Origin: an uncultured Ruminiclostridium sp.
GTDB lineage: Bacteria > Bacillota > Clostridia > Oscillospirales > Ruminococcaceae
NCBI GenBank assembly: GCA_947630685.1
Contig: CANRII010000001.1
Location: forward strand, 199 to 64,198
Length of the DNA: 64,000 nt
Reading direction: 5' to 3'
The stretch's first letter is position 1, and the number at the start of each line of letters is the position of its first letter. Positions 14,086 through 30,369 of the stretch are shown here, piece after piece. The notes beneath the pieces were generated by a model. The model was not told the DNA's origin. It was given only the letters and a program-made list of their open reading frames with translations, and did not search any database. The position numbers and the translations under genes were made by a program.

Positions 14086-14304
14086 TCAAATATACATAAA
14101 CGTACTTCTTCCTCCGGCGACATTTTCAAGCGCTTCATCGGAAAGCTCCGTGCCGGAACGCAGCGTATCGTACAGCTCTTTGGCCTTTTCCTCGGAAAGC
14201 TCAAAGCCGTCTTCCTTTGCCAAAGCTATAAGCTCCTCCGGCGAGTTTGCTTTGTTAAGCTTTTGCAAAAGCTCCTCTTTAGTCATAATAGTATGTTCAG
14301 CCAT
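14086..14304 (-). CDS. Nif11-like leader double-glycine precursor peptide P1
   Basis: Leader ends LSDEALENVAGG; core RSTFMYI. Confidence 0.85.
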   Translation of the reverse strand: MAEHTIMTKEELLQKLNKANSPEELIALAKEDGFELSEEKAKELYDTLRSGTELSDEALENVAGGRSTFMYI

Positions 14305-14354
14305 TTTCGCTTTCCTCCTTTAGATAGGTTTTTGAAGCAAAGGCGAAAAATCGA

Positions 14355-14651
14355 TCACCCTTCCGACCATAACGTTTCGGTGAAAAATTTATCGACTGCT
14401 TTAACGCCTTTTTCAATACCCTTTGCTATATCCTTCCAGAAATCAAGGCAGGAATATCCGCCCGCAACTCCTTCGAGCGCGTCGTCGGAAAGCTCGCCCT
14501 CGGCGTGCAGCGTATCGTACAGCTCTTTGGCCTTTTCCTCGGAAAGCTCAAAGCCGTCTTCCTTTGCCAAAGCTACAAGCTCCTCCGGCGAGTTTGCTTT
14601 GTTCAGCTTTTGCATAAACTCCTCTTTAGTCATAATAGTCTGTTCAGCCAT
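14355..14651 (-). CDS. Nif11-like leader precursor P2
   Basis: LSDDALEGVAGG; core YSCLDFWKDIAKGIEKGVKAVDKFFTETLWSEG. Confidence 0.88.
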   Translation of the reverse strand: MAEQTIMTKEEFMQKLNKANSPEELVALAKEDGFELSEEKAKELYDTLHAEGELSDDALEGVAGGYSCLDFWKDIAKGIEKGVKAVDKFFTETLWSEG

Positions 14652-14682
14652 TTTTTATTATCCTCTTCCGCTGTCTTAAAGC

Positions 14683-15078
14683 TCAAGACCAAGTGCGTTT
14701 GCAATCACCGCAGTAATATTTTTGGGTCTTCTCGCTATACGCTGTATTTTTGCGCGAATGGCAGTAGGGGCAGTCTATGCCCTGAGTAACGTCCCTGAAC
14801 GCTTCGGGTATCGTTTCGGTGAAAAATTTACCTATACTCTCAACGCCCTTTGCTATATCTTTCCAGAAATCAAGGCAGGAATATCCGCCCGCAACTCCCT
14901 CGAGCGCGTCGTCGGGAAGCTCGCCCTCGGCGTGCAGCGTATCATATAGTTTTTCGGAGTCTTCCACGGAAAGCTCGAAGCCGTCTTCCTTTGCCAAAGC
15001 TATAAGCTCCTCCGGCGAGTTTGCTTTGTTGAGCTTTTGCATAAACTCCTCTTTAGTCATAATAGTCTGTTCAGCCAT
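14683..15078 (-). CDS. Nif11-like leader precursor P3 (helix plus CxxC..CxxC core)
   Basis: Core YSCLDFWKDIAKG...CPYC-16aa-CGDC. Confidence 0.88.
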   Translation of the reverse strand: MAEQTIMTKEEFMQKLNKANSPEELIALAKEDGFELSVEDSEKLYDTLHAEGELPDDALEGVAGGYSCLDFWKDIAKGVESIGKFFTETIPEAFRDVTQGIDCPYCHSRKNTAYSEKTQKYYCGDCKRTWS

Positions 15079-15109
15079 TTTTGTTATCTCCTTTCAAAAT
15101 TGTCGGCAG

Positions 15110-15340
15110 TTAAACGAGAGTACGGAACGGACCTATACGGTCGCCGCCTCCTCCTCCGAGCCAGTATCCGCCCGCAACGCTTTCAAGCTGTTCATCGGTC
15201 AGCTCGCCGCCGCTCAGCTGCTCGAAAAGCTCTTTTGCCTTTTCGGGAGTCATTTCGATCCCGTTTTCCTTAGCAAGCGCGAGGATATCATCAGCGGATC
15301 TTACATCTTTCAGCTTTGCTAAAAATTCTTCCTTGTTCAT
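15110..15340 (-). CDS. Nif11-like leader precursor P4
   Basis: LTDEQLESVAGG; core YWLGGGGGDRIGPFRTLV. Confidence 0.88.
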   Translation of the reverse strand: MNKEEFLAKLKDVRSADDILALAKENGIEMTPEKAKELFEQLSGGELTDEQLESVAGGYWLGGGGGDRIGPFRTLV

Positions 15341-15386
15341 ATTTTCTCCTTTTACAACTAGCGATCTGATATTATCAGCGGACTTG

Positions 15387-15629
15387 TTAATAATTTATTA
15401 ATTTCACTCCGCTCATGCTCTCTATTATTTTAATTATCTCATCATCCATACTCCAGCCGCCGGCAACGTTTTGGAGCTGATCATCGGATAACTCGACCGA
15501 GTTTAATTTGCCGAAAAGCTCCTGTGCTTTGTCGGGAGCAATTTCAATGCCGTTTTCTTTGGCAAGAGCGATAATATCATCAGCGGACTTTGCACCTTTC
15601 AGCTTGGAAATAAATTCTTCCTTGTTCAT
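15387..15629 (-). CDS. Nif11-like leader precursor P5
   Basis: LSDDQLQNVAGG; core WSMDDEIIKIIESMSGVKLINY. Confidence 0.88.
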   Translation of the reverse strand: MNKEEFISKLKGAKSADDIIALAKENGIEIAPDKAQELFGKLNSVELSDDQLQNVAGGWSMDDEIIKIIESMSGVKLINY

Positions 15630-15774
15630 TTGTTTAAGCTCCTTTCAAGGGGGCAGATCAGAATAGTAGTTCCTTTATTCTCTTCTTTAATTTGTCCTTC
15701 AAATCCCCGCCTGCGACTTTGTCAAGTTCCTCGTCGGAAAGCTCGCAGTTTGAATTTATCTGATCAAACAGCTC
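15601..15774. repeat. 174-nt exact direct repeat (second copy 16330..16503)
   Basis: Spans the 3' half of P6/P9, the spacer and the first codons of the next precursor (P5/P8). Confidence 0.9.
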
Positions 15775-15882
15775 TTTTGCCTTTTCGGGGGTTAGCTCAA
15801 CACAGTTTTCCCTTGCAAGTACTAGAATATCGTCAGCAGATTTTGCTTCTTTTAGCTTGGCGATAAGTTCTTCATTGTTCAT
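15658..15882 (-). CDS. Nif11-like leader precursor P6
   Basis: LSDEELDKVAGG; core DLKDKLKKRIKELLF. Confidence 0.88.
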   Translation of the reverse strand: MNNEELIAKLKEAKSADDILVLARENCVELTPEKAKELFDQINSNCELSDEELDKVAGGDLKDKLKKRIKELLF

Positions 15883-15906: not shown

Positions 15907-16132
15907 TTATTTTCCAAAAAGGCTACCGAACCACTCTTTGACTGTGTCAACTATGCCGCCCCCGGAAACAGTATCAAGCTGATCGTCGGATAACTCGACC
16001 GAGTTCATACTGTTGAAAATCTCTTGTGCCTTATCGGGGGGGTACGTCAACGCCGGCTTCTTTTGCCAACGCAATAATATCGTCGGCAGATTTTGCTGTT
16101 TTCAGATTTGCAATAAATTCTTCCTTAGTCAT
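15907..16132 (-). pseudogene. Nif11-like leader precursor P7, +1 frameshift in a C7 tract (absent from the ORF track)
   Basis: 226 nt from ATG to TAA. Removing one base from the run at 16036-16042 gives MTKEEFIANLK...LSDDQLDTVSGG-GIVDTVKEWFGSLFGK (74 aa); AAAGGAG RBS upstream. Confidence 0.85.
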
Positions 16133-16160: not shown

Positions 16161-16358
16161 TCAATGGTATGTCCAGATGCTCATGCCGCCCGCAACGTTT
16201 TCTAACTGCTCATCGGAAAGCTCGCCGCCGCTTAGCTGCTCGAAAAGCTCTTCTGCCTTTTCGGGAGTCATTTCGATCCCGTTTTCCTTAGCAAGAGCGA
16301 GGATATCGTCAGCGGACTTTGCCAATTTAAGCTTGGAAATAAATTCTTCCTTGTTCAT
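16161..16358 (-). CDS. Nif11-like leader precursor P8
   Basis: LSDEQLENVAGG; core MSIWTYH. Confidence 0.88.
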   Translation of the reverse strand: MNKEEFISKLKLAKSADDILALAKENGIEMTPEKAEELFEQLSGGELSDEQLENVAGGMSIWTYH

Positions 16359-16386: not shown

Positions 16387-16611
16387 TCAGAATAGTAGTT
16401 CCTTTATTCTCTTCTTTAATTTGTCCTTCAAATCCCCGCCTGCGACTTTGTCAAGTTCCTCGTCGGAAAGCTCGCAGTTTGAATTTATCTGATCAAACAG
16501 CTCCTGTGCCTTTTCGGGAGCAATTTCAATGCCGCTTTCATTAGCAAGCGCGATAATATCGTCGGCGGATTTTACGCCTTTAAGCCTTGCTAAAAATTCT
16601 TCCTTGTTCAT
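16387..16611 (-). CDS. Nif11-like leader precursor P9
   Basis: Core DLKDKLKKRIKELLF, identical to P6, on a different leader N-half. Confidence 0.88.
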   Translation of the reverse strand: MNKEEFLARLKGVKSADDIIALANESGIEIAPEKAQELFDQINSNCELSDEELDKVAGGDLKDKLKKRIKELLF

Positions 16612-16646: not shown

Positions 16647-16844
16647 TCAATGGTATGTCCAGATGCTCATGCCGCCCGCGACGTTTTCCAGCTGCTCGTC
16701 GGAAAGCTCATTGCCGCTCATCTGCTCGAAAAGCTCTTTCGCCTTGTCGGGGGTCATCTCAACGCCGTTTTCCTTTGCAAGCGCTAGAATATCATCAGCG
16801 GATTTTGCATCTTTCAGCTTGGCTAAAAATTCTTCCTTGTTCAT
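16647..16844 (-). CDS. Nif11-like leader precursor P10
   Basis: Core MSIWTYH. Confidence 0.88.
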   Translation of the reverse strand: MNKEEFLAKLKDAKSADDILALAKENGVEMTPDKAKELFEQMSGNELSDEQLENVAGGMSIWTYH

Positions 16845-16872: not shown

Positions 16873-17070
16873 TCAATGGTATGTCCAGATGCTCATGCCG
16901 CCCGCGACGTTTTCCAGCTGCTCGTCGGAAAGCTCATTGCCGCTCAGCTGCTCGAAAAGCTCTTTTGCCTTATCGGTAGTCATTTCTATCCCGTTTTCCT
17001 TAGCAAGCGCGATAATATCGTCAGCGGATTTTACGCCTTTCAGCTTGGCTAAAAAATCTTCCTTTTTCAT
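16873..17070 (-). CDS. Nif11-like leader precursor P11
   Basis: Start reassigned to MKKEDF (ATG 17070) by homology with its siblings; core MSIWTYH. Confidence 0.85.
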   Translation of the reverse strand: MKKEDFLAKLKGVKSADDIIALAKENGIEMTTDKAKELFEQLSGNELSDEQLENVAGGMSIWTYH

Positions 17071-17092: not shown

Positions 17093-17326
17093 TTAATCGT
17101 TATTGTTTGGAAACGGGATAATAAAGTCTTTTTCCCAAATAATGCGGCTGCCGCCGGCAACATTGTCAAGCTCGTCGTCGGACATTTCGCCGCTTGCGGT
17201 TATCCGCTCGAAAAGCTCCTTTGCCTTATCGGGAGTTATCTCTATCCCGTTTTCTTTAGCAAGCGCGATAATATCATCGACGGATTTTACGCCTTTCAGC
17301 TTGGCTAAAAAATCTTCCTTGTTCAT
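17093..17326 (-). CDS. Nif11-like leader precursor P12
   Basis: Start MNKEDF (ATG 17326) after AAAGGAG; core SRIIWEKDFIIPFPNNND. Confidence 0.85.
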   Translation of the reverse strand: MNKEDFLAKLKGVKSVDDIIALAKENGIEITPDKAKELFERITASGEMSDDELDNVAGGSRIIWEKDFIIPFPNNND

Positions 17327-17399
17327 GTTAAGCTCCTTTCGTAAGGTGGGTGGCATACGGGCGTCAGCCGAAAAGGCATCGTCCCGTATGCCTGAACTT

Positions 17400-17627
17400 T
17401 TAGTATTTATACACCGCGATCCATACGTCCGGACCTAAAAGATCGGCAAGGTCTTTTCTTCCGCCCGCAACATTGTCAAGCTCGTCGTCGGATAATTCGT
17501 TTATCTTGTCGAAAAGCTCCTTTGCCTTATCGGGAGCGATCTCTAAGCCGTTTTCTTTTGCAAGAGCGATAACGTCATCGACGGACTTTGCATTCGTCAG
17601 CTTTTTGATAAATTCTTCCTTGTTCAT
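17400..17627 (-). CDS. Nif11-like leader precursor P13
   Basis: LSDDELDNVAGG; core RKDLADLLGPDVWIAVYKY. Confidence 0.88.
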   Translation of the reverse strand: MNKEEFIKKLTNAKSVDDVIALAKENGLEIAPDKAKELFDKINELSDDELDNVAGGRKDLADLLGPDVWIAVYKY

Positions 17628-17655: not shown

Positions 17656-17901
17656 TTAAAGTTGGATCTTTATGATCTGTCCGTGACCCTCCGCATAACA
17701 GCAGTCTTCGCAGTTATAACCGCTGGTGCCGCCGGAACGGATATATACTATCCTCTTTGAACCGCAGTTCGGACAGCCGTTCGCCCAACTTTTTATATAT
17801 TCGGGAGAACCCTCTTTCGGAAGCGACGTGTCATTCGATCCGCCCGAAACGCTTTCAAGCTGGTCGTCGAGAAGCTCCGCGTTTTTATCTGATCTTTCCA
17901 T
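17656..17901 (-). CDS. Short-leader double-glycine precursor P14 (CxxC..CxxC core)
   Basis: 21-aa leader ending LLDDQLESVSGG; core contains CPNC-17aa-CEDC. Confidence 0.82.
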   Translation of the reverse strand: MERSDKNAELLDDQLESVSGGSNDTSLPKEGSPEYIKSWANGCPNCGSKRIVYIRSGGTSGYNCEDCCYAEGHGQIIKIQL

Positions 17902-17923: not shown

Positions 17924-18286
17924 TTAATCCTTCTTAGTCATAGATGATACGGCTGCGCTCGTGGAAACTTGTGCTAAAGACTTTGTAAAGTCCGCGAAGC
18001 CCTCGAAATATTCGGGTATGTCCTTTGTGAAGAAGTCCTTTACATCCTCTGTAAAGAATTTATCTATAGACTTGAAAACGTCGGTGAGCCAGCTGCCGCC
18101 GGAAACGCCCTCAAGCTCATCGTCGGAAAGCTCGCCCTCAGCGTGCATGGAATCAAATAATTTCTGCGCGTTTTCCGGACTTAACTCCGCGTCGTACACC
18201 TTAGCAAACTCTATCAGCTCCTCCGGGGACTTCGCACTCATTAACTGAGCCTGAAATTCTTCCTTAGTGAATACTTGCTCTTCCAT
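17924..18286 (-). CDS. Nif11-like leader precursor P15
   Basis: LSDDELEGVSGG; core SWLTDVFKSIDKFFTEDVKDFFTKDIPEYF... Confidence 0.88.
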   Translation of the reverse strand: MEEQVFTKEEFQAQLMSAKSPEELIEFAKVYDAELSPENAQKLFDSMHAEGELSDDELEGVSGGSWLTDVFKSIDKFFTEDVKDFFTKDIPEYFEGFADFTKSLAQVSTSAAVSSMTKKD

Positions 18287-18328: not shown

Positions 18329-18691
18329 TTACATTAAGCCTAAACCTTTTGCCGCCTCGCCCACTATGACTTTAGCGGTAGTTTCATACGCATCCGGTAA
18401 TGTTTCGGTAAAGAATTTGGGTACGTCCTTTGTGAAGAAGTCCTTTACATCCTCTGTAAAGAATTTATCTATAGACTTAAAAGCGTCGGTGAGCCAGCAG
18501 CCGCCGGAAACGCCCTCAAGCTGATCGTCGGAAAGCTCGCCCTCGACGTGCATAGAATCAAACAATTTCTGCGCGTTTTCCGGACTTAACTCCGCGTCGT
18601 ACACCTTAGCAAACTCTATCAGCTCCTCCGGGGACTTCGCACTCATTAACTGAGCCTGAAATTCTTCCTTAGTGAATACTTGCTCTTCCAT
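18329..18691 (-). CDS. Nif11-like leader precursor P16
   Basis: Core CWLTDAFKSIDKFFTEDVKDFFTKDVPKFFTETLPDA... Confidence 0.88.
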   Translation of the reverse strand: MEEQVFTKEEFQAQLMSAKSPEELIEFAKVYDAELSPENAQKLFDSMHVEGELSDDQLEGVSGGCWLTDAFKSIDKFFTEDVKDFFTKDVPKFFTETLPDAYETTAKVIVGEAAKGLGLM

Positions 18692-18733: not shown

Positions 18734-19099
18734 TTACATTAAGCCTAAACCTTTTGCCGCCTCGCCCACTATGACTTTAGCGGTAGTTTCATACGCATCC
18801 GGTAATGTTTCGGTAAAGAATTCGGGTACGTCCTTTGTGAAGAAGTCCTTTACATCTTTGGTAAAGAATTTATCTATAGACTTAAAAGCGTCGGTGAGCC
18901 AGCAGCCGCCGGACACGCCCTCAAGCTGATCGTCGGAAAGCTCTCCCTCGACGTGCATGGAATCAAACAATTTCTGCGCGTTTTCCGGGCTTAACTCCGC
19001 GTCGTACACCTTAGCGAACTCTATCAGCTCCTCCGGGGATTTTGCGCTCATTAACTTCTCCTGAAATTCTTCCCTGGTGAGTGTTCTTGCCTCTTCCAT
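18734..19099 (-). CDS. Nif11-like leader precursor P17
   Basis: Near-duplicate of P16 (2 core substitutions). Confidence 0.88.
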   Translation of the reverse strand: MEEARTLTREEFQEKLMSAKSPEELIEFAKVYDAELSPENAQKLFDSMHVEGELSDDQLEGVSGGCWLTDAFKSIDKFFTKDVKDFFTKDVPEFFTETLPDAYETTAKVIVGEAAKGLGLM

Positions 19100-19153: not shown

Positions 19154-19441
19154 TTATTCAAAAACGTGTCCGCAGAACTTACATACATAATGATACGCCT
19201 TTGTAGGAAAGCCCTTTGGTACAAGCCGGGAATCGGTCACCTGCTCTATCTCAATATCATATTTGCCGCAATACATACATCTTGACGGCTTTTCGGGAAT
19301 AGCGCTGAGCGGCGTGCTTGAATCAGAACCGTATATTACTTTTCCGAACGGCGTTTGCATTTCAAACCACATACCGCTGCCGCCCGACACCGTTTCAAGC
19401 TCTTCGTCGGAAAGCTCGTTCCTCTTTTCCTCTTTGCTCAT
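19154..19441 (-). CDS. Short-leader double-glycine precursor P18 (CxxC..CxxC core)
   Basis: 21-aa leader ending LSDEELETVSGG; core contains CMYC-28aa-CKFC. Confidence 0.82.
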   Translation of the reverse strand: MSKEEKRNELSDEELETVSGGSGMWFEMQTPFGKVIYGSDSSTPLSAIPEKPSRCMYCGKYDIEIEQVTDSRLVPKGFPTKAYHYVCKFCGHVFE

Positions 19442-19456: not shown

Positions 19457-19846
19457 TTATGATTTTACAAGCTTGCCGCAGTGTTTGCACCTGATCTTTT
19501 GGACGCCGAATTGCCATTCTATCGTAAAGCCTTCGCGTGAACCGCACCACTGGCAATCAGCGCCGTAGAAAATATCTTTGAATTTGTCGCTTATTGCATC
19601 ACCTAATGATTCAAACGTTTCTTTCACGCTTTTTAAAAAGCTGCTTAAGCTTCCTCCCGCTACGCTTTCAAGCTCATCGTCGGAAAGCTCTCCCTCGGCG
19701 TGCAGAGCATCAAACAATTTCTGCGCGTCTTCCGGGCTCAGTTCGAGGTTGCATTCATTAGCGAACGCTATCAGATCCTCCGGAGACTTTGCTTTCTTTA
19801 ACAGCTCCTTTATTTCTTCATCGGTGATTTTTTTCGCTTCTTCCAT
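19457..19846 (-). CDS. Nif11-like leader precursor P19 (helix plus CxxC..CxxC core)
   Basis: Core SLSSFLKSVKETF...CQWC-18aa-CKHC. Confidence 0.88.
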   Translation of the reverse strand: MEEAKKITDEEIKELLKKAKSPEDLIAFANECNLELSPEDAQKLFDALHAEGELSDDELESVAGGSLSSFLKSVKETFESLGDAISDKFKDIFYGADCQWCGSREGFTIEWQFGVQKIRCKHCGKLVKS

Positions 19847-19946: not shown

Positions 19947-20309
19947 TCAGTTTTTCTTGGTCTTTATCACATACTGGCAGTTGCCGCAAATGGTTTTTAT
20001 AACTCCCTTGTCGCTCTGCTGGTAGCTCTTGCGCGAACCGCACCTCGGGCAATCCGCACCTACAAACAGATCAGCTATTTTGTCGCCGAGATTCTTAAAG
20101 AAGTCTGTAAAAGCGTTTCCGCCCGCAACATCCTCAAGCTGCTCGTCGGCAAGCTCGCCCTCAGAATGAAGTGCGGCGAACATGGCCTTAGCGTCCTGCT
20201 CGCTTATGGTCACTCCGTTGCCATCCGCGATAGCGATAAGCTCGTCGGGAGACTTTGCCGCCTTGATCTTAGCAAGTATCTCCTCGTTGGTTATTGTTTT
20301 CTCTTCCAT
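19947..20309 (-). CDS. Nif11-like leader precursor P20 (helix plus CxxC..CxxC core)
   Basis: Core NAFTDFFKNLGDKIADLF...CPRC-17aa-CGNC. Confidence 0.88.
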   Translation of the reverse strand: MEEKTITNEEILAKIKAAKSPDELIAIADGNGVTISEQDAKAMFAALHSEGELADEQLEDVAGGNAFTDFFKNLGDKIADLFVGADCPRCGSRKSYQQSDKGVIKTICGNCQYVIKTKKN

Positions 20310-20364: not shown

Positions 20365-20799
20365 TTAATGTAACCACGTATAGCCGCAGTTGCAGCATTT
20401 ATAGTTATACTGACCGCCCGCCTGGGCAGATACGCCAAGCTCTTCTTTAGTGTTTATTGAGCCGCAGCTGGGGCATTTTACATATTTTAGCAGCCTGTCT
20501 ATACCCTCGCCCGCTAGCTTAAACGCTTCCGGCACATCTTTCGTGAATACTTTTTCTACGGCTTTAGCCGCTTTTTTTATTCCCTCTCCTATGTCGCAGA
20601 AGATGCATCCGCCCGAAACCTCAGCAAGCTCATCGTCGGAAAGCTCGCCCATAGCCATCGCGCTTTCATACATCTTCTTTGCGGTCTCCTCACTTACGGT
20701 AACGCCGTTTTCTTTAGCAAGCGCCATTACCCCCTCGGGAGAACCCGCCTCTCTGAATTTTGCAAACAGTTCTTCTTGGCTTATAGTTTTTTCTTCCAT
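20365..20799 (-). CDS. Nif11-like leader precursor P21 (helix plus CxxC..CxxC core)
   Basis: Core CIFCDIGEGIKK...CPSC-22aa-CCNC (80 aa). Confidence 0.88.
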   Translation of the reverse strand: MEEKTISQEELFAKFREAGSPEGVMALAKENGVTVSEETAKKMYESAMAMGELSDDELAEVSGGCIFCDIGEGIKKAAKAVEKVFTKDVPEAFKLAGEGIDRLLKYVKCPSCGSINTKEELGVSAQAGGQYNYKCCNCGYTWLH

Positions 20800-22628: not shown

Positions 22629-22813
22629 GGCTTTTCATCGCCTCCCGTTTCGGCGCGCCACGTTTCATTCTCTCCCGCGGCGTTAAGCTCAAGGTCGCTG
22701 TCGTCCAGAGGTACGCCCATGTCCTCCGTGCGCACTATCCTTTCAAGGCGTTCGTTCTTTTGGAACTTTTGAAAATCGAACAATGCGCGCAGCAGTTTTT
22801 CGCTCTTATCCAT
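22625..22813 (-). CDS. Small protein with double-glycine-leader-like motif, translationally coupled to the ECF sigma
   Basis: 62 aa, GGAGG RBS, LFDFQKFQKNERL and LDDSDLELNAAG; ATGA overlap with the sigma start. Confidence 0.75.
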   Translation of the reverse strand: MDKSEKLLRALFDFQKFQKNERLERIVRTEDMGVPLDDSDLELNAAGENETWRAETGGDEKP

Positions 22814-22850: not shown

Positions 22851-22877
22851 ATACGTTGAGCGGTAGTGTTTTGTTAG
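22851..22877 (-). promoter_or_regulatory. Possible ECF-type promoter upstream of the small ORF-sigma operon
   Basis: Minus strand ctAACa...CGTAt with 17 nt between AAC and CGT, matching the general ECF AAC/CGT pattern. The motif is short and weak. Confidence 0.35.
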
Positions 22878-22897
22878 ATTATTTTTGAAAAATTTTT

Positions 22898-25117: not shown

Positions 25118-27310
25118 TTATTCATTGGAAACGAGCCTGGTATAAAGCCCGTTCGCGGCGTACAGCTCTTCATGCGTGCCGCGTTCAACGACTTTTCCAT
25201 TATCCAAAACGATTATCTCGTCGCAGTCGCGTATGGTGGAAAGTCTGTGTGCGACGACTATGCAGGTTATTCCCCTGTCCTTTATGGAGCGTACCACGTC
25301 GTACTCGGTCTTTGCGTCCAGCGCGCTGGTCGCCTCGTCCAGGATTATTATAGTGGGATCCTGGGCGAGCACGCGGGCTATCTCCATTCTCTGACGCTGA
25401 CCGCCGGAGAAGTCCTTGCCGTTTTCGGTAATGACGTAATCATATCCGCCGTCGCGCTGCATTATGTCGGAATGTATCTGCGCGTCCTTTGCGGCGAGTA
25501 TCATTTCAAAATCTTCAATGGAGCTGTCCCACATCTTTATATTGTTTCTTATAGAGTCCTCAAACAGGATTATATCCTGATCCACTACCGCCAAAGAGCC
25601 GGTAAACACGCTGCGGTCGATATCCTTTATCGGCTTGCCGTCAAAAAGTATCTCGCCGCTCCACGGCTGATACAGTCCGGAGATGAGCTTTGAAAGGGTG
25701 GATTTTCCACAGCCGGAGCCTCCCACGAAAGCAACGCGGCTGCCCGGCTTTAGGGTAAGGCTGAAATCCTCTATCAGCGGATCGTCAAGACGTGAATAGC
25801 CGAACGTAACGTTCTTTAATTCCACGGTGCCGCTTAGCTTGCTGTACTCCGCGTCGTCGGAGGCGGTATCGTCGTCCCTGTAGTTTACGTCGGTGGGATA
25901 TTCCATAACGTCCTCGATACGCTCCATCTGGGTGCGCATCTCCTGTATGGTCTGACTTGCCGAGATAAGCGTCATGGCAGGCTCGGTAAAGGACGCTAAA
26001 AATCCCTGGAACGCCATTACCATACCTACGGTGAAATTGCCCTGTATAGTAAACAGCACGCCGAGTATCAGCACTATTGTATTGGTAAGCTGAGAAACAA
26101 GTCCCGGCACCATGCCGAGGTATTCGTTCAGCCTTTCGTATCTTACCTGCTGGGTGTTCACGCTCGCCTGATAGCCCGACCATTTTTCAAAATAGCCGTT
26201 CTCCGCGCCGCTGGACTTGATAGTTTCTATCATCTCTATACCCGCGACCGTCGCGCCTGCGAGCTTGCCCTCGTCGCGCATCTGGATACGGGTGATATTG
26301 ACGCGCTTTTTAGAGATTATCTGCGACATTATAAGATTGAGCAATATAGAAGCCACACCGACTATCGTCAATATCCAGCTGTAGCGTATCATTACCACGA
26401 GATAGAATATCATCATCGCCGTATTCAGCACCAGCGGCGCAAAGGTATTTACAAGGCTGCTCGCTATGCCGGAATTAGTGCTTTGCCTTTGCTGGATATC
26501 CCCCGCCATTCGCTGGGAGAAAAACTCCATCGGCATGCGCAGTATCTTCCATAAAAACGACGTATCGCCCACTACCGCTAATTTTCCCTCTATCATTCGG
26601 TTGGATTTTGCGGTGACGTATGCGACGACGATCTGCGCCAGCGAAAATACCGCTAACAGCGCAAGGAACGGATAGAACCATTCTATATCCGTATGCGTCA
26701 AAAGTCTATCCAGAAATACCCGTGAAAACGCGGGCTGTATAATGCCGAGCAGCGACGTTATTATCGTAGTGATAACAGTAAACGCGATGGCTACTCCCGC
26801 GCCTATAAGGCGTTTTCTCGCAAAGGACATCACGCTTTTCGGCTTTCCGCCCGGCTCGAAATTCTCGGTCGGCTCGAACATCAGGCAGATACCGGTAAAG
26901 CTCTTATCAAAGGTTTCCATAGAAACGGTATAATTGCCTTTTGCCGGATCGTTAAGCACGGCTTTATCGCCCTTAAAGCCGCAAAGCACCACAAAGTGAT
27001 TGAAATTCCAATGGACTATGCAGGGGAATTTTCCTTTTTCCTTGAGCTGCTCCGGCTCGTAGCGGTAGCCCTTTGCCGTCATTCCGTAGCTGCGGGCGGC
27101 CTTAAGTACGTTCTTAGCGCTGGAGCCGTCGCGGGACACGCCGCAGTCCGCGCGCACCTGCTCGAGCGGTATCCATTTTCCGTAATAGGCAAGGATCATG
27201 GTAAGCGCCGCCGCTCCGCATTCGAGCGCCTCCATCTGCATTACCACAGGCACCTTTGCCCAGCCTTTCGTTACCGGCGTATGCTGCTTTTTATCGAACA
27301 TCATGCGCAC
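25118..27310 (-). CDS. NHLM/NHLP bacteriocin export ABC transporter, C39 peptidase/permease/ATPase (TIGR03796-like)
   Basis: QMEALECGAA (Cys), HWNFNHF (His), NDPA (Asp), GGSGCGKS, FSGGQRQR. The start may be ATG 27304 or 27301. Confidence 0.93.
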   Translation of the reverse strand: MRMMFDKKQHTPVTKGWAKVPVVMQMEALECGAAALTMILAYYGKWIPLEQVRADCGVSRDGSSAKNVLKAARSYGMTAKGYRYEPEQLKEKGKFPCIVHWNFNHFVVLCGFKGDKAVLNDPAKGNYTVSMETFDKSFTGICLMFEPTENFEPGGKPKSVMSFARKRLIGAGVAIAFTVITTIITSLLGIIQPAFSRVFLDRLLTHTDIEWFYPFLALLAVFSLAQIVVAYVTAKSNRMIEGKLAVVGDTSFLWKILRMPMEFFSQRMAGDIQQRQSTNSGIASSLVNTFAPLVLNTAMMIFYLVVMIRYSWILTIVGVASILLNLIMSQIISKKRVNITRIQMRDEGKLAGATVAGIEMIETIKSSGAENGYFEKWSGYQASVNTQQVRYERLNEYLGMVPGLVSQLTNTIVLILGVLFTIQGNFTVGMVMAFQGFLASFTEPAMTLISASQTIQEMRTQMERIEDVMEYPTDVNYRDDDTASDDAEYSKLSGTVELKNVTFGYSRLDDPLIEDFSLTLKPGSRVAFVGGSGCGKSTLSKLISGLYQPWSGEILFDGKPIKDIDRSVFTGSLAVVDQDIILFEDSIRNNIKMWDSSIEDFEMILAAKDAQIHSDIMQRDGGYDYVITENGKDFSGGQRQRMEIARVLAQDPTIIILDEATSALDAKTEYDVVRSIKDRGITCIVVAHRLSTIRDCDEIIVLDNGKVVERGTHEELYAANGLYTRLVSNE

Positions 27311-27311
27311 C

Positions 27312-27833
27312 TCAATTAAACAAGAACATTATCGGAGAAATACTGTCGGTTATTATCTCCGCCTTATATGTGCCGCTGGGAAAAGAAGCGCCCAGCTTTA
27401 TCGGGTATACCCATTCGCCCTCCATAAGGTCAAAAGCGTGCATGGTATACTCGTTGAACGTGTTTTTATCCACCGTGATAGGCTCCTCGGAGATCTCCTC
27501 TATCGGGTATTCCTTGTTGTCTATCCTTACGGGATCGTCAAGAGATACCCGTTCTATATCCCCCTCTTTGACAAAACAGAACGCTATCTCGTCCATACCC
27601 GCTTCCTGCGCCTGCGGTACGAGGTCTTGGAGCCCTTGCACCGACAAAACGACGCATTCGACCTTGGTCTCTATCTTGCCTACCGCGCCCCATACGATAA
27701 ATCCTATCAGCAGGAGTATCACCGCGCCCAGCGTCAGCCAGATACCGGGACTGGTCACCCGTATGTAGTCGTTGAGCTGCTCCGGAGAGGAGACGCGCTC
27801 TATGCTCTTTTCTCTGAAAATATTGTTTGCCAT
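27312..27833 (-). CDS. NHLP bacteriocin system secretion accessory protein (short form, TIGR03794-like N-terminus)
   Basis: IFREKSIERVSSPEQLNDYIRVTSP followed by one TM helix. Confidence 0.85.
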   Translation of the reverse strand: MANNIFREKSIERVSSPEQLNDYIRVTSPGIWLTLGAVILLLIGFIVWGAVGKIETKVECVVLSVQGLQDLVPQAQEAGMDEIAFCFVKEGDIERVSLDDPVRIDNKEYPIEEISEEPITVDKNTFNEYTMHAFDLMEGEWVYPIKLGASFPSGTYKAEIITDSISPIMFLFN

Positions 27834-27890
27834 TTATTTACCTCCGTTTTATCGTTACGGGGCAAGCCCGTTATTGAAGTCCGCGCGCTG

Positions 27891-29339
27891 TTATTTTGCC
27901 AAAGCGCCGGACGAAGTTCCTTTTTTTCCGTACCATATCAACGCAACTGCATATGCAGCGGTAAGCACTCCCGCTATCGTATAGCTTATCGCCCACGGTA
28001 AATTAAATCCGATAGCCGCGTTGAGGATAAAGCTGGATATCACGAACATATAGAACATACCCGGCAGCAACGCCATGATAAACGGCTTTTTATGCCGTAT
28101 CATGTATATCGCTATCATGGCGAACGCGAACACCGCTATGGTCTGATTTGCCCATGCGAAATACCGCCAAAGTATATTGAATCCGCCGCTGTTCACCTTA
28201 GCGAACACCAGCACCGCCGCCGTTACCGCGAATATTATCAGCGACACGCCGAGCCTTTTTTTAGTCTTGGTCTGGTCTATTTTGAGCGCGTCGGAGATTA
28301 TCAGCCTGAGCGAACGCAAAGCGGTATCGCCGGAGGTTATCGGCAGTACGATAATACCTATCACCGCTATTATGCCGCCGACTCCGCCGAGCAGGTTTTT
28401 GGCGATTATCCCCACCACTTCGGTAGCCTCGGTCTCGGCTCCGGCAAGTCCCAGCTTCATTACGCCCATAGCGGCAGCCGCCCATATCATGGCGATGAAG
28501 CCCTCGGCTATCATCATATTGTAAAAGGTCATGCGGCCTTCCTTTTCGCTGCGCATCGTGCGTGAAATAAGCGTCGCCTGCGTGGAATGAAAGCCGGATA
28601 CTATTCCGCACGCTACGGTAACGAAGAACACCGGTATAAAGTTTAGCCCCTGCGGGTGAACGCCCAGTCCCGTCGTCCATATCTCGTCCAGCGGATAACC
28701 CTTTATCAAAAAGCCTATGAACACGCCTATCGCCGATATTATCAGCAGCAGTCCGAATATGGGATATACCTTTCCGATTATCTTATCTATAGGAAATAAA
28801 GTGGCTATGATATAATATACGAATATCGCGCCGTACACTATCCACACTATGGGATTTGTCACGCCGTTGTCCGCGCCGAGTATCTGCGTTACAAACAAAT
28901 CGCCCGGGGTATAGATAAACACCGTGCCTACCAGCAGCATCAAAAGGCAGACGAACACGTTATAGATAGGATAAGCATACTTGCCGAGATACTTTCTTAT
29001 AAGTCCCGGCATCTGCGCGCCGTCGTTTCGCACCGATATCATGCCGGACATATAATCGTGGAACGCTCCGCCTATCACGCAGCCTATCGGGATAGTCAAA
29101 AAGGCGATAGGTCCGAAAAGAATGCCCTGTATCGGACCGAGTATAGGCCCCGTTCCCGCGATGTTCAGCAATTGTATCAGCGAGTTTTTCCACTTTTTCA
29201 TCGGAACATAGTCCACGCCGTCGTTGAGCCGCACCGCTGGAGTTTCGCGGTCGTCCGGCTTAAAGACCTTTTCGCAGAATTTGCCGTATACCGCTCCTCC
29301 CACGATAAGAAGCGCAAGTCCTATAAAGAATGTAACCAT
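27891..29339 (-). CDS. cstA: Carbon starvation protein A (CstA) family transporter
   Basis: TPAVRLNDGVDYVP, IAGTGPILGP, CGIVSGFHSTQ, TSGDTALRSLR; highly hydrophobic. Confidence 0.88.
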   Translation of the reverse strand: MVTFFIGLALLIVGGAVYGKFCEKVFKPDDRETPAVRLNDGVDYVPMKKWKNSLIQLLNIAGTGPILGPIQGILFGPIAFLTIPIGCVIGGAFHDYMSGMISVRNDGAQMPGLIRKYLGKYAYPIYNVFVCLLMLLVGTVFIYTPGDLFVTQILGADNGVTNPIVWIVYGAIFVYYIIATLFPIDKIIGKVYPIFGLLLIISAIGVFIGFLIKGYPLDEIWTTGLGVHPQGLNFIPVFFVTVACGIVSGFHSTQATLISRTMRSEKEGRMTFYNMMIAEGFIAMIWAAAAMGVMKLGLAGAETEATEVVGIIAKNLLGGVGGIIAVIGIIVLPITSGDTALRSLRLIISDALKIDQTKTKKRLGVSLIIFAVTAAVLVFAKVNSGGFNILWRYFAWANQTIAVFAFAMIAIYMIRHKKPFIMALLPGMFYMFVISSFILNAAIGFNLPWAISYTIAGVLTAAYAVALIWYGKKGTSSGALAK

Positions 29340-29391
29340 AAAATACCACTCCTTAAAAAATTTTTAGCCGCAAGCCCGAAATTCAAAGATA

Positions 29392-30369
29392 TCACAGATC
29401 GTTTTCCAGATACGCTTGTAATCTTGTTTGCACGTTCTTTTCCAGATTGCGGTAGAAAAATTGATAATCGTATAAATGATATATGCCGTCGGTGAAAATA
29501 TCCAATCCCGCGGGATAATCCGCAGGAGAAACGTCGGGGACCTTAAGCGCTCCTCTGCTGTCGTCGATATACGCTCCAGTAAGCGCGGGTATCTCGGTTT
29601 TTATATTGCCGTCGTAATCGGTAAAGCATGCGCCGAGGTTAAGCTCTTTATCGGCGGGAGTATTGTCCGTAGTCCAGTTCAGCGGGTTTATCGCAAGCGT
29701 TTTCGTTCCTTTAGGTATCATCAGAGAATCGTCGATATCCTCCGCCTCGCTGTTGAACGCAACGATAACGCCGGTATCGCTTTCACCCGAGGCAAATTTA
29801 AGCTGAGGATATTCTTCAAGCTCCTGCTCGGTGACGCGCCAGCCTATCGCATAGCACGCGACCAGCTGACTTTGCAGCTTCTCGTCGGTAAAGCGCTCTT
29901 TCAGCAGCCTTATGCACATATCCGCCCCTTGGGAAAAGCCCGCGAGTATTATCGGGCGGCCGTCGTTGAAATTGTCATAGTAATGATCAAACGACGCTTT
30001 TACGTCCTCAAAGGCGGTATCGAAATACTTATCCGCGCCGCTGTCTTCCATTTTGTAAACGTCCAGCGCCGCCTGACGGTAGTACGGCGCGAAAAAGCGG
30101 CATTCATCGTCGTATATGCCCTTTTCCATATTCGTAGCGCCGAGAAAGCTGGCTTTTGCGTCTTGGTCGGAAAGCGGCATGTTATGGATATCCTCCCCGC
30201 CCATATATACCGTCGGACAGATAAAAAATACGTCAGCGGGAAGATCAGTATCGCCGCTGCCGCAGTACGCCCAGTTTTCTTCGGCATGATAATCTACAGA
30301 CGCGCTCTCACAGCCGCAGAATAAAACGGCTGCAAAAACCAGCAAAGCAATAAGTTTTACTCTTTTCAT
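29392..30369 (-). CDS. DUF3089 alpha/beta-hydrolase lipoprotein
   Basis: Lipobox FCGC; ADVFFICPT, FAPYYRQ, GFSQG nucleophile elbow, INPLNW, HLYDYQFFY. Confidence 0.85.
   Translation of the reverse strand: MKRVKLIALLVFAAVLFCGCESASVDYHAEENWAYCGSGDTDLPADVFFICPTVYMGGEDIHNMPLSDQDAKASFLGATNMEKGIYDDECRFFAPYYRQAALDVYKMEDSGADKYFDTAFEDVKASFDHYYDNFNDGRPIILAGFSQGADMCIRLLKERFTDEKLQSQLVACYAIGWRVTEQELEEYPQLKFASGESDTGVIVAFNSEAEDIDDSLMIPKGTKTLAINPLNWTTDNTPADKELNLGACFTDYDGNIKTEIPALTGAYIDDSRGALKVPDVSPADYPAGLDIFTDGIYHLYDYQFFYRNLEKNVQTRLQAYLENDL

What the first reader, a model, noticed from the sequence alone, without database searches (positions are those of the whole stretch)
14086..30369. Candidate new peptide system: 21-gene Nif11 precursor library with exporter, acyltransferase and ECF sigma, but no canonical maturase
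Seen: 21 co-oriented precursor genes in 6.7 kb (20 intact, 1 frameshifted; 18 distinct cores of 7-80 aa), all with an [EL]LS[DE][DE]xL[ED]xV[AS]GG-type cleavage motif. They follow, in order, DUF3089, CstA, accessory protein, C39-ABC, second ABC, small ORF, ECF sigma and acyltransferase. Known: Nif11/NHLP leaders with this two-ABC cassette usually accompany LanM, YcaO or radical-SAM enzymes. None is in this window, and most cores lack lanthipeptide- or azole-type Cys/Ser/Thr patterns. Inference: this is a dedicated secretion system for a library of unmodified or acylated peptides and mini-proteins (competition or signalling), with its own sigma factor. I cannot check the literature, so novelty is not established.
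Basis: partly seen in the sequence, partly recalled or inferred. Interest (0 to 1): 0.9.

Follow-up and report, generated by a model that had tools for sequence, protein, structure and literature searches.

The report
Maturase-less Nif11 peptide export island
A rabbit-gut Clostridia genome carries a gain-and-loss gene island that cuts and exports 21 leader-tagged small peptides and mini-proteins, apparently without chemical modification; it is a new variant of a known export system, and its own sigma factor is paired with a small protein that mimics the export tag.

Summary
They lie downstream of DUF3089, CstA, a 173-aa adaptor, a C39-ABC, a second ABC, a 62-aa ORF, an ECF sigma and a 422-aa protein.

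The system belongs to the known Nif11/NHLM export kind (Haft 2010; the LahT cluster). No maturase was found: no YcaO, LanC, LanM or LanB hit, and the only SPASM radical-SAM enzyme is the SCIFF maturase beside its own peptide. Maturases that relatives couple to the same exporter have no homologue here.

Comparison with about 25 related loci corrects the interpretation. CstA, DUF3089 and the 422-aa protein (a true condensation/CAT-fold acyltransferase) are resident genes, still present where the island is missing. The island proper is the adaptor, two ABCs, the 62-aa ORF, the ECF sigma and the precursors, plus a PP2C phosphatase that is lost along with it.

The most novel part is the 62-aa ORF. 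It belongs to a family of 423 clusters, is nearly always followed by an ECF sigma, usually lies near a PCAT exporter, and copies the leaders' LSDDELxxV recognition helix but ends in AAG instead of GG.

No transcript or peptide data could be obtained.

The parts
20365..20799 (-). Precursor 1 (144 aa). Nif11 leader ...LSDDELAEVSGG, then an 80-aa core: amphipathic helix plus a CxxC...CxxC tail.
   Evidence: Orthologues in L010 and L011. The AF2 model is low-confidence.
19947..20309 (-). Precursor 2 (120 aa). Core NAFTDFFKNLG... with CPRC...CGNC.
19457..19846 (-). Precursor 3 (129 aa). Core SLSSFLKSVKETF... with CQWC...CKHC.
19154..19441 (-). Precursor 4 (95 aa). Short 21-aa leader MSKEEKRNELSDEELETVSGG, then a 74-aa core with CMYC...CKFC.
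   Evidence: leader HMM E = 4e-4.
18734..19099 (-). Precursor 5 (121 aa). Core CWLTDAFKSIDKFFTKDVKDFFTKDVP...
   Evidence: Member of the 405-bp tandem repeat.
18329..18691 (-). Precursor 6 (120 aa), a near-copy of precursor 5.
17924..18286 (-). Precursor 7 (120 aa). Core SWLTDVFKSIDKFFTEDVKDFF...
17656..17901 (-). Precursor 8 (81 aa). Short leader, then a 60-aa core with CPNC...CEDCC.
   Evidence: Near-identical in L010.
17400..17627 (-). Precursor 9 (75 aa). Core RKDLADLLGPDVWIAVYKY.
   Evidence: Identical core in L010.
17093..17326 (-). Precursor 10 (77 aa). Core SRIIWEKDFIIPFPNNND.
16873..17070 (-). Precursor 11 (65 aa). Core MSIWTYH.
   Evidence: One of three copies. L010 has two copies and L012 has RCIWTYH.
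16647..16844 (-). Precursor 12 (65 aa). Core MSIWTYH.
16387..16611 (-). Precursor 13 (74 aa). Core DLKDKLKKRIKELLF.
16161..16358 (-). Precursor 14 (65 aa). Core MSIWTYH.
15907..16132 (-). Precursor 15, frameshifted. Core GIVDTVKEWFGSLFGK.
   Evidence: The intact orthologue GIVDTIKHWVGSLFGR (GIVDTIKKWVGGLFGR in L020) is the first array gene in 6 related species.
15658..15882 (-). Precursor 16 (74 aa). Core DLKDKLKKRIKELLF, second copy.
15387..15629 (-). Precursor 17 (80 aa). Core WSMDDEIIKIIESMSGVKLINY.
15110..15340 (-). Precursor 18 (76 aa). Core YWLGGGGGDRIGPFRTLV.
   Evidence: The core is 17/18 identical in L012, against 45/58 for the leader.
14683..15078 (-). Precursor 19 (131 aa). Core YSCLDFWKDIAKGV... 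with CPYC...CGDC.
   Evidence: Nif11 PF07862, E = 4e-8; weak Zn-ribbon hits. Orthologue in L012.
14355..14651 (-). Precursor 20 (98 aa). Core YSCLDFWKDIAKGIEKGVKAVDKFFTETLWSEG.
14086..14304 (-). Precursor 21 (72 aa). Core RSTFMYI.
   Evidence: Identical core in L010.
20825..22093 (-). X422: a 422-aa stand-alone condensation/CAT-fold acyltransferase (H109xxxD113). It is a resident gene embedded in the island's operon, not island-specific.
   Evidence: No Pfam or NCBIfam hit. AF2 pLDDT 82; Foldseek matches to the SrfA-C C domain, TRI101, PapA5 and BAHD enzymes at probability 1.0. Present without the island in at least 9 species.
22137..22628 (-). ECF sigma factor (163 aa; regions 2 and 4 only).
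   Evidence: TIGR02937, 111 bits. Conserved in 8 of 9 island lineages.
22625..22813 (-). s62: a 62-aa partner of the sigma factor with the leader-mimic motif LDDSDLELNAAGE. Its stop overlaps the sigma start by 4 nt.
22851..22878 (-). ECF-type promoter TCTAAC-N17-CGTAT upstream of s62.
   Evidence: Both blocks are invariant in 8 loci from two clades and present in L029, L030 and L033. The function is inferred; the bare pattern is not enriched in the window.
22898..25105 (-). ABC2: NHLP-type export ABC permease/ATPase with no recognisable peptidase domain.
   Evidence: TIGR03797, 721.7 bits against cutoff 709.4.
25118..27310 (-). ABC1: C39-peptidase ABC exporter (PCAT), the only one in the genome.
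   Evidence: TIGR03796, 946.6 bits against cutoff 853.3; Peptidase_C39 E = 2e-36. It is the only genome hit covering model positions 1-125. The Cys (ECGAA) and His (HFVVL) motifs are visible in the sequence.
27312..27833 (-). 173-aa minimal HlyD-like adaptor: N-terminal membrane anchor plus a small domain.
   Evidence: It matches only positions 1-65 of the 421 in TIGR03794. Conserved next to ABC1 in all island loci, in L029 and in many metagenome loci.
27891..29339 (-). CstA-family transporter: resident gene, probably co-transcribed with the exporter.
   Evidence: PF02554. Present with and without the island. The gap to the adaptor gene is 57 nt.
29392..30369 (-). DUF3089 lipoprotein-like protein: resident gene.
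   Evidence: PF11288. Present in island-less L001 and L005. The best sigma-70-like promoter lies at 30452-30424, minus strand.
9414..10256 (+). LytTR-type response regulator.
   Evidence: Adjacent to the exporter module in L029.
10253..11623 (+). AgrC-like (HATPase_c_5) sensor histidine kinase.
11645..11938 (+). STAS anti-anti-sigma-type protein.
   Evidence: PF01740, E = 4e-16.
11944..13560 (+). Membrane HAMP-PP2C (SpoIIE/RsbU-like) phosphatase, deleted together with the island in sister species.
13523..13960 (+). RsbW-like anti-sigma kinase.
   Evidence: Island-less L018 keeps only a truncated remnant.

Best explanation
What it is. This is a fast-turnover accessory island in uncultured rabbit-gut Oscillospiraceae. 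It is a maturase-less variant of the Nif11/NHLM peptide-export system.

Transcription (inferred). The s62-ECF-X422-array stretch is probably one operon, transcribed from an ECF-type promoter in front of s62 by the island's own ECF sigma.

Export (inferred from family membership). ABC1 is the genome's only C39-peptidase ABC exporter. It probably works as a heterodimer with ABC2 and with the 173-aa minimal adaptor. It recognises the LSD[DE]ELxxV[AS]GG end of each leader, cuts after Gly-Gly and exports the core.

Cargo. Most or all cores probably leave the cell unmodified. They are short linear amphipathic peptides, a conserved multi-copy heptapeptide, and 56-80-aa mini-proteins made of an amphipathic helix plus a four-Cys ribbon-like tail. 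The most likely role is a strain-variable cocktail for competition between bacteria, possibly including signal peptides. This role is inferred from population behaviour: copy-number change, orphan precursors and broken exporters in relatives.

Regulation. s62 is the sigma factor's dedicated partner, most likely its anti-sigma factor. The neighbouring two-component and STAS/PP2C/RsbW genes probably feed into the same control.

Resident genes. CstA, DUF3089 and the condensation-fold X422 are resident genes around which the island is wrapped. They are not needed by the peptide system.
For: Membership and completeness of the export machinery.

Real genes: each has an RBS; cores are conserved across species, for example 17/18 identity in a core against 45/58 in its leader.

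No maturase:
- YcaO: none, and the control genomes rang.
- LANC_like, DUF4135 and Lant_dehydr_N: none.
- The single SPASM rSAM is ScfB (TIGR03974, 719 bits; only 267 bits on the Nif11-rSAM model, whose cutoff is 519), with SCIFF adjacent.
- The maturases of L029 and L047, which are coupled to the same exporter-s62-ECF module, have no homologue in this genome. The only exception is a 28% match of one rSAM to ScfB.
- No maturase gene was seen between the exporter and the precursors in any of the 9 island-bearing lineages.
- 12 of 21 cores have no Cys.

Island boundaries: island-plus and island-minus sister loci differ by three clean indels, namely the PP2C segment, the exporter-s62-ECF segment and the precursors. 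Presence and absence are interleaved on the X422 and CstA trees. X422 and CstA persist without the island.

Sigma control:
- The -35 and -10 blocks are invariant in a diverged intergenic region.
- s62 and the sigma gene overlap by 4 nt.
- In 64 of 72 metagenomic loci an ECF sigma gene follows the s62 homologue directly, and 11 of 12 loci with full flanks contain PCAT genes.
- The hexamer CGTATA occurs in 25 of 67 regions upstream of s62 homologues, against 0 of 67 in the reverse-complement control.
Against:
- The lanthipeptide-domain searches had silent controls.
- About 3% of the genome is missing, and unknown or generic enzymes cannot be excluded.
- No immunity gene is visible, and the cores are neutral to acidic rather than cationic. 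That is atypical for class II bacteriocins.
- X422 sits inside the presumed operon in every island-bearing lineage, so a side role cannot be ruled out.
- Relatives with similar CxxC mini-protein cargo often carry an rSAM enzyme.
- The exact ECF promoter motif is confined to the close clade.
Confidence: 0.6

Rival explanations
1. The peptides are acylated, or otherwise condensed, by X422 before export. The condensation-fold enzyme would then be the system's maturase.
For: X422 has a bona fide condensation/CAT acyltransferase fold with a conserved catalytic His. It lies between the sigma gene and the first precursor in all 9 island-bearing lineages, with gaps of 15-43 nt upstream and 25 nt downstream in the window. 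Acylated Nif11-leader RiPPs exist: the nostolysamides (PMC13060382, listed). C-domain or NRPS genes recur near related cassettes (L094).
Against: X422 is intact and conserved, with H109 invariant, in at least 9 species that lack the exporter and precursors. L029 has the exporter-s62-ECF module without X422. The cores share no common acceptor residue. The N-terminus is only exposed during export. The L094 NRPS is unrelated in sequence.
Confidence: 0.12
2. A maturase acting in trans, encoded elsewhere, modifies at least the Cys-rich cores. Candidates are ScfB moonlighting, an unrecognised enzyme, or a gene in the missing 3% of the genome. That would make them a known RiPP class such as ranthipeptide- or sactipeptide-like.
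For: Related gut-Clostridia cassettes with similar CxxC mini-protein cargo carry an rSAM/SPASM gene next to s62. ScfB is 28% identical to one L029 rSAM. The MAG is fragmented into 174 contigs.
Against: ScfB scores as an equivalog of the SCIFF maturase and sits next to its own substrate. The cassette-type rSAMs have no homologue in the genome. 12 of 21 cores have no Cys. Nine island lineages show no linked maturase.
Confidence: 0.15
3. The array mainly encodes signalling peptides (pheromones) rather than antimicrobials. Candidates are the multi-copy, cross-species conserved xxIWTYH heptapeptide and the other short cores. They would be read by the adjacent AgrC-like kinase with its LytTR regulator, or by the membrane PP2C.
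For: MSIWTYH is present in three copies here and two in L010, and RCIWTYH occurs in L012. An AgrC-type kinase and a LytTR regulator are adjacent, and in L029 they directly precede the exporter. No immunity genes are present and the cores are not cationic. The PP2C is lost together with the island.
Against: The kinase and regulator persist in island-less species next to CstA. 18 different cores, including 56-80-aa mini-proteins, are more than signalling needs. The strain-level turnover resembles that of bacteriocin loci.
Confidence: 0.2
4. The island is decaying or silent, and the array is a non-functional relic.
For: One precursor is frameshifted. In L012 ABC1 is split and one cleavage site reads GR. 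L011 keeps precursors without an exporter.
Against: In the window all exporter genes are intact and above the equivalog cutoffs. 20 of 21 precursors are intact, each with an RBS. The cores are conserved across species.
Confidence: 0.05

Closest known systems
Nif11-derived peptide (N11P, TIGR03798) with the NHLM export cluster TIGR03794/03796/03797 (Haft, Basu & Mitchell 2010, PMC2887384)
   Same: Long Nif11-type leaders ending in Gly-Gly, a large paralogous family with variable cores, and an adjacent C39-ABC plus a second ABC that score above the equivalog cutoffs.
   Different: No LanM, YcaO or rSAM partner. The HlyD component is reduced to 173 aa. The host is a gut Oscillospiraceae, not a cyanobacterium. 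Cores are conserved between species rather than hypervariable. The system has its own s62-ECF regulatory pair.
The lah cluster of Lachnospiraceae bacterium C6A11: PCAT LahT with nine Nif11-type precursors LahA1-9 (Bobeica et al. 2019, PMC6363468)
   Same: A gut or rumen Clostridia array of Nif11-type double-Gly precursors with diverse cores, served by one tolerant C39 PCAT. The recognition determinant lies in the last 13 or so leader residues.
   Different: 21 genes; two-ABC architecture; no maturase found; sigma plus leader-mimic regulator. I did not compare sequences with LahT or LahA.
Class II (unmodified) double-glycine bacteriocin loci such as pneumococcal blp or Lactobacillus pln (own knowledge)
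   Same: A peptide cocktail cleaved and exported by a PCAT, strain-to-strain variation in content, orphan precursors and broken transporters in relatives, and an adjacent AgrC-type kinase with a LytTR regulator.
   Different: Leaders are 56-65 aa and Nif11-type rather than 15-30 aa. No immunity genes. Cores are neutral or acidic. Control is by an ECF sigma.
FlgM / sigma-28 export checkpoint (own knowledge), as an analogy for s62-ECF
   Same: A small soluble partner of an alternative sigma factor that carries the recognition signal of a dedicated export machine encoded in the same regulon.
   Different: A different sigma class and a different exporter (ABC/PCAT rather than flagellar T3SS). s62-sigma binding and s62 export are untested.
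MibX/MibW and PspX/PspW: ECF sigma/anti-sigma pairs in actinomycete lantibiotic clusters (own knowledge)
   Same: A pathway-specific ECF sigma drives a ribosomal peptide cluster.
   Different: Those anti-sigmas are membrane proteins without a leader-like motif. Those systems have maturases.

Membership tests
Nif11/NHLM export system (Haft 2010) | Precursors match the Nif11-like leader model TIGR03798. | tested here: met
   18 of 20 match. 10 genome hits reach the 32.3-bit cutoff; the best scores 46.7. The two short-leader genes keep only the cleavage-proximal part.
Nif11/NHLM export system (Haft 2010) | Gly-Gly cleavage motif at the leader end, followed by a variable core. | tested here: met
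   GG is invariant in all 21; there are 18 distinct cores.
Nif11/NHLM export system (Haft 2010) | Peptidase-containing ABC, TIGR03796 above cutoff. | tested here: met
   946.6 bits against 853.3.
Nif11/NHLM export system (Haft 2010) | Second ABC, TIGR03797 above cutoff. | tested here: met
   721.7 bits against 709.4.
Nif11/NHLM export system (Haft 2010) | HlyD-like secretion protein, TIGR03794 above cutoff. | tested here: not met
   38.7 bits against 156.2; only model positions 1-65 of 421 match. The short adaptor is conserved in relatives.
Nif11/NHLM export system (Haft 2010) | Linked modification enzyme (cyclodehydratase, LanM or rSAM). Typical of the family, not strictly defining. | tested here: not met
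   None in the window. None detectable in the genome.
Class II unmodified double-glycine bacteriocins | Double-Gly leader processed by a C39 ABC exporter, with no modification genes. | tested here: met
   plus the maturase searches listed above. Processing itself is inferred.
Class II unmodified double-glycine bacteriocins | Dedicated immunity gene next to the structural genes. | tested here: not met
   The gaps between precursor genes are 15-100 nt and hold no credible extra ORF.
Class II unmodified double-glycine bacteriocins | Cationic mature peptides with antimicrobial activity. | tested here: inconclusive
   Net charge runs from -3 to +5 and is mostly near 0. Activity cannot be tested here.
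Lanthipeptides (prochlorosin-like Nif11 arrays) | LanM/LanC-type synthetase in the genome, and Cys plus Ser/Thr in the cores. | tested here: not met
   No LANC_like, DUF4135 or Lant_dehydr_N hit, but the controls were silent. 12 of 21 cores lack Cys.
rSAM-modified Nif11 peptides (TIGR04064 type / gut-Clostridia rSAM cassettes) | Dedicated rSAM/SPASM maturase. | tested here: not met
   The only SPASM protein is ScfB: 267 bits on TIGR04064 (cutoff 518.7) against 719 bits on TIGR03974. The rSAMs of L029 and L047 have no homologue in the genome, apart from a 28% match of L029 rSAM441 to ScfB.
ECF sigma / anti-sigma pair | Sigma with regions 2 and 4 only. | tested here: met
   PF04542 and PF04545/PF08281; TIGR02937, 111 bits.
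ECF sigma / anti-sigma pair | Co-transcribed partner protein that binds the sigma. | tested here: inconclusive
   s62 overlaps the sigma start, and homologues precede an ECF sigma in 64 of 72 loci. It matches no anti-sigma domain model. Binding is not testable here.
ECF sigma / anti-sigma pair | Autoregulatory AAC-N16/17-CGT promoter. | tested here: met
   TCTAAC-N16/17-CGTAT is invariant in 8 loci and present in L029, L030 and L033. It is valid only for the close clade. The transcription start is untested.
Condensation/CAT-superfamily acyltransferases (for X422) | Two-lobed CAT-like fold with a catalytic HxxxD. | tested here: met
   Foldseek probability 1.0, TM 0.55-0.63 to SrfA-C C domain, PapA5, TRI101 and BAHD enzymes. 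H109 is invariant; D113 is present in 15 of 16.
Condensation/CAT-superfamily acyltransferases (for X422) | Match to the sequence model PF00668 or related models. | tested here: not met
   No Pfam or NCBIfam hit at E <= 0.01.

The most novel reading that the evidence does not exclude
s62 is an export-sensing anti-sigma factor. It holds the island's ECF sigma inactive and carries a copy of the exporter's own recognition helix (LSDDELxxV) with an altered cut site (AAG in place of GG). The C39 exporter therefore binds, cleaves or expels it. Sigma activity, and with it precursor synthesis, would then be tuned to the free capacity of the pump, because precursors compete with s62 for the exporter. 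This would be a FlgM-like checkpoint for ABC peptide exporters, conserved across gut and rumen Clostridia (423 protein clusters), and absent from the literature I could search.
Probability: 0.35. Interest if true: 0.85.

Novelty: new variant of a known kind. Interest (0 to 1): 0.62.

Why it matters
Three things would follow if this is right.

1. Nif11-type leaders and the NHLM exporter are usually read as flags for modified RiPPs. Here they would also serve as a plain secretion route for unmodified peptides and small Cys-rich proteins in gut anaerobes. Genome-mining tools would therefore misclassify such loci.

2. The locus is a natural presence/absence experiment. Sister species differ by three clean deletions, and strains differ in array size (12 against 21 genes). 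That makes it useful for studying how peptide arsenals turn over in a gut community.

3. The s62-ECF pair offers a directly testable hypothesis for how cells match precursor synthesis to exporter capacity. How PCATs avoid flooding the cytoplasm with their substrates is an open question, stated as such in PMC6363468.

The 18 cores are short enough to synthesise and test.

Tried and rejected
Transcription, operon structure and array copy number could not be checked.
- My first regex census of precursors missed VTGG and VVGG sites and wrongly scored L011 as precursor-free. I replaced it with a leader HMM.
- The bare promoter pattern TAAC-N15-18-CGTA is not enriched in the window: 7 matches against 7.6 expected. 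Only positional conservation counts. The exact motif does not generalise to the broad s62 family (2 of 69). Only the CGTATA element does.
- AF2 of the largest cargo gave pLDDT 57.6. I did not use it for a fold search, so the zinc-ribbon call rests on the CxxC pattern and weak Pfam hits.
BLASTP of the ABC2 N-terminus against the ABC1 C39 domain found nothing (E = 9), so this is not confirmed here.
- The idea that the L094 ORF after CstA is an X422 homologue is rejected: hhalign probability 1.8%. It is an NRPS C-A fragment.
- The remote X422 homologue P0015 sits next to an rSAM gene on a 4.5-kb contig. That is too little context to use.
- The literature search for Nif11 in gut Clostridia returned noise. 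Searches combining anti-sigma or ECF with double-glycine, PCAT or Nif11 found no relevant paper.
- I considered a lanthipeptide library and rejected it: no synthetase was found and most cores lack Cys.

Full report
OBSERVATION

The finding is accurate. On the minus strand between 14086 and 20799 there are 21 small ORFs. Twenty are intact, and one (15907-16132) is split by a frameshift. Each has an AAGGAG-type ribosome-binding site 6-10 nt before its start codon, and the gaps between genes are 15-100 nt.

All 21 end their N-terminal part in E-L-S-D-[DE]-x-L-x-x-V-[AS]-G-G. Eighteen of the 20 intact proteins match the Nif11-like leader model TIGR03798. The other two (precursors 4 and 8) have 21-aa leaders that keep only the part next to the cleavage site. 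Across the whole 2.25-Mb genome (a MAG of 174 contigs, 96.7% complete) the model hits nothing outside this array.

- 12 have no cysteine.
- 6 carry CxxC...CxxC.
- Many contain a strongly amphipathic stretch.
- Net charge is mostly neutral to acidic.

Two tandem duplications are visible: a 405-bp unit (2.8 copies, 95% matches) and a 226-bp unit (2.6 copies, 85%).

Upstream genes, listed in order of increasing window coordinate:
- a 422-aa protein with no Pfam or NCBIfam hit
- an ECF sigma factor
- a 62-aa ORF (s62)
- ABC2 (TIGR03797, 722 bits, cutoff 709)
- the C39-peptidase ABC1 (TIGR03796, 947 bits, cutoff 853)
- a 173-aa protein that matches only the first 65 positions of the HlyD-like model TIGR03794
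- CstA
- DUF3089

ABC1 is the only transporter in the genome that covers the peptidase part of the model.

IS THERE A MATURASE?

- Pfam scans of 26 large ORFs across the window found none.
- Genome-wide, YcaO gave no hit and the control genomes rang.
- LANC_like, DUF4135 (LanM) and Lant_dehydr_N (LanB) gave no hit, but the controls were silent, so this evidence is weaker.
- One SPASM radical-SAM gene exists, on contig C89. It is the SCIFF maturase ScfB: 719 bits on TIGR03974, against 267 bits on the Nif11-specific rSAM model TIGR04064, whose cutoff is 518.7. Its own SCIFF peptide gene is adjacent.

A sharper test came from relatives that use the same exporter module. L029 couples it to two NHLP-type precursors, a B12-rSAM, a second rSAM and three unnamed proteins. 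L047 and L094 couple it to an rSAM/SPASM. Apart from a 28% match of one L029 rSAM to ScfB, none of these enzymes has a homologue in the window's genome.

So 'no canonical maturase' holds as far as these tools can show. Three reservations remain: 3% of the genome is missing, the assembly is fragmented, and unknown enzymes cannot be excluded.

WHAT BELONGS TO THE SYSTEM

The 422-aa protein (X422) belongs to a tiny family: 15 clusters among 5.8 billion proteins, all without Pfam domains. Its AlphaFold model (pLDDT 82) matches NRPS condensation domains, PapA5, TRI101 and BAHD acyltransferases at Foldseek probability 1.0. His109 of an HxxxD motif is invariant.

Its context tells a different story. 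Every relative is a rabbit-gut MAG, labelled Ruminiclostridium, Clostridia or Oscillospiraceae.

In at least 9 species, CstA and X422 are adjacent with no exporter, sigma or precursor. The loci are L001/L022, L023, L024, L002/L018, L019, L021, L025, and L005/L011.

In 9 lineages the identical split arrangement recurs: CstA - adaptor - ABC1 - ABC2 - s62 - ECF - X422 - precursors (2 to 21) - 5'-nucleotidase.

On the X422 and CstA trees, island-bearing and island-less taxa are interleaved. Well-supported branches force at least 2 changes, and the best tree needs about 4.

DNA comparison of island-less L018 with island-bearing L016 and L027 shows three clean indels:
- a 2-kb PP2C phosphatase segment, whose loss leaves a truncated RsbW remnant, so the island-less state is derived by deletion
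- the 5.7-kb adaptor-to-ECF segment
- the 1.2-kb precursor segment

L029 has the exporter-s62-ECF module directly after a LytTR regulator, a kinase and a STAS gene, with neither CstA nor X422.

Conclusion: CstA, DUF3089 and X422 are resident genes, and the island is wrapped around X422. X422 is probably co-transcribed with the array, since its gaps are 43 and 25 nt. It is kept, with its catalytic His, wherever the island is absent, so its main job is independent of the peptides.

THE ARRAY IN ITS POPULATION

A leader-HMM census gave the following precursor counts:
- 21, one of them frameshifted, in the window
- 12 in a sister strain of the same species (L010)
- 2-8 in the other species

L011 keeps two intact precursors but has no exporter at the locus. 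In L012, ABC1 is split, one cleavage site reads GR, s62 is truncated, and the sigma gene is replaced by a zeta-toxin-like gene.

Cores recur across species:
- GIVDTIKHWVGSLFGR (one variant in L020) is the first array gene in six species, and it is the frameshifted gene in the window.
- YWLGGGGGDRIGPFR[T/P]LV is 17/18 identical between species whose leaders are 45/58 identical.
- xxIWTYH is present three times here, twice in L010 and once in L012.

The cores are therefore under purifying selection, unlike the hypervariable prochlorosin cores. This pattern of variable content, orphan precursors and broken transporters resembles class II bacteriocin loci such as pneumococcal blp (own knowledge). 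Two things do not fit that model: there are no immunity genes, and the cores are not cationic.

REGULATION

The ABC2-s62 intergenic region has diverged between clades, but TCTAACAAAA and CGTAT stay invariant, 16-17 nt apart. They are also present in L029, L030 and L033. This matches Bacillus-type ECF promoters (xAAC-N16/17-CGTA; own knowledge). The bare pattern is not enriched in the window, so only the conservation carries weight.

s62 overlaps the sigma start codon by 4 nt. An exhaustive profile search shows that s62 belongs to a family of 423 representative clusters, almost all 58-90 aa. In 80 gut and rumen metagenome loci:
- an ECF sigma gene follows the s62 homologue directly in 64 of the 72 loci with room downstream
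- 11 of the 12 loci with full 8-kb flanks contain PCAT-type ABC genes
- many loci carry Nif11-leader arrays, often with CxxC-rich mini-protein cores

The s62 C-terminal consensus is L-S-D-D-[DE]-L-E-x-V-[NS]-A-A-G, with AAG in 55 of 55 aligned motifs. It repeats the local leaders' L-S-D-[DE]-E-L-D-N-V-[AS]-G-G but has a consistently altered cut site. The hexamer CGTATA occurs upstream of s62 homologues in 25 of 67 regions, against 0 of 67 in the reverse-complement control.

The window also encodes, next to the 3' end of the array, a LytTR regulator, an AgrC-type kinase, a STAS protein, a HAMP-PP2C phosphatase and an RsbW-like kinase. The PP2C is deleted together with the island.

I infer that s62 is the sigma's partner, probably its anti-sigma factor. 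The leader mimicry suggests contact with the C39 exporter. Binding, cleavage and export are all untested.

COMPARISON WITH WHAT IS KNOWN

Haft et al. 2010 defined Nif11-derived peptides, their paralogous expansion and the TIGR03794/96/97 export cluster. They also noted that the leader end resembles class II bacteriocin leaders, and that the transporter seems to constrain it more than the maturases do. Bobeica et al. 2019 described nine Nif11-type precursors with the PCAT LahT in a Lachnospiraceae.

The present locus meets the family's precursor and ABC criteria. It fails the HlyD criterion because its adaptor is minimal, and it has no maturase. I found no paper that links a sigma or anti-sigma factor to a PCAT or to Nif11 leaders. 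Earlier notes of this scan flag the same sigma-partner protein in other genomes. Those are unchecked AI notes. I tested their core claims here through.

VERDICT

The feature is real, intact and well delimited. It is a new variant of a known kind: a maturase-less, sigma-controlled Nif11/NHLM secretion island with a 21-gene cargo array. The acyltransferase, CstA and DUF3089 should be removed from the 'system'. The PP2C/STAS/RsbW genes and the s62-ECF pair should be added. Function (competition or signalling) and the absence of modification remain inferences, because no expression or peptide data could be obtained.

Noticed in passing
L029:2218-15668: The same adaptor-ABC1-ABC2-s62-ECF module (ABC1 81% identical) serves a classic modified-RiPP cluster here: two NHLP-type precursors with Cys/Gly/Val-rich cores, a B12-binding rSAM, a second rSAM and three proteins without Pfam hits (461, 299 and 402 aa). 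The export-and-regulation module is evidently portable between cargo types.
   Followed up: partly
L094:3069-6130: In an unrelated gut lineage, s62-ECF is followed by a lipoprotein, CstA and then an NRPS fragment (Condensation plus AMP-binding domains). A CstA gene followed by a C-domain protein thus recurs next to these cassettes, although the NRPS is unrelated in sequence to X422.
   Followed up: partly
L011:8761-12134: This species has two intact Nif11 precursors after X422 but no exporter at the locus. A 405-aa protein with a C-terminal STAS domain occupies the exporter's position.
   Followed up: partly
L012 (same record as L006):4450-11700: A decaying version of the island. ABC1 is split into two ORFs, s62 is truncated to 52 aa, the ECF sigma is replaced by a 91-aa ORF plus a Zeta_toxin-like gene, and one precursor has GR instead of GG.
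   Followed up: partly
window 17327-17399: The 73-nt gap between precursors 9 and 10 holds a 10-bp perfect inverted repeat (GGCATACGGG...CCCGTATGCC). It could be an internal attenuator or an RNA-stabilising hairpin within the array.
   Followed up: no
L015, L016, L017, L020 and L027, about 50-90 nt after the X422 stop: A conserved hairpin-like element (GTGAAxCCACGCAGGTGCGTTTCA) lies between X422 and the first precursor in the 'Clostidia bacterium' clade. It is absent from the window, where the gap is only 25 nt.
   Followed up: no
window 6443-9139: An 898-aa thermolysin-like M4 metallopeptidase is encoded just upstream of the LytTR regulator and kinase pair. Any relation to the peptide island is unknown.
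   Followed up: no
window 37918-38826: A 302-aa protein with a prokaryotic RING finger domain (Prok-RING_1, E = 2e-22).
   Followed up: no
window 40500-63800: A sugar-nucleotide and glycan biosynthesis cluster (nucleotidyltransferase-HAD, GHMP kinase, epimerases/dehydratases, DegT aminotransferase, a GT11-like 906-aa protein, UDP-glucose dehydrogenase). At 48-60 kb the G+C drops to 0.32-0.38, and an unscanned 2046-aa ORF lies at 55450-61590. It is probably a horizontally acquired surface-polysaccharide locus.
   Followed up: no
window 1222-6321 and 36051-37802: Three large ORFs (1006, 687 and 583 aa) have no Pfam match at E <= 0.001.
   Followed up: no
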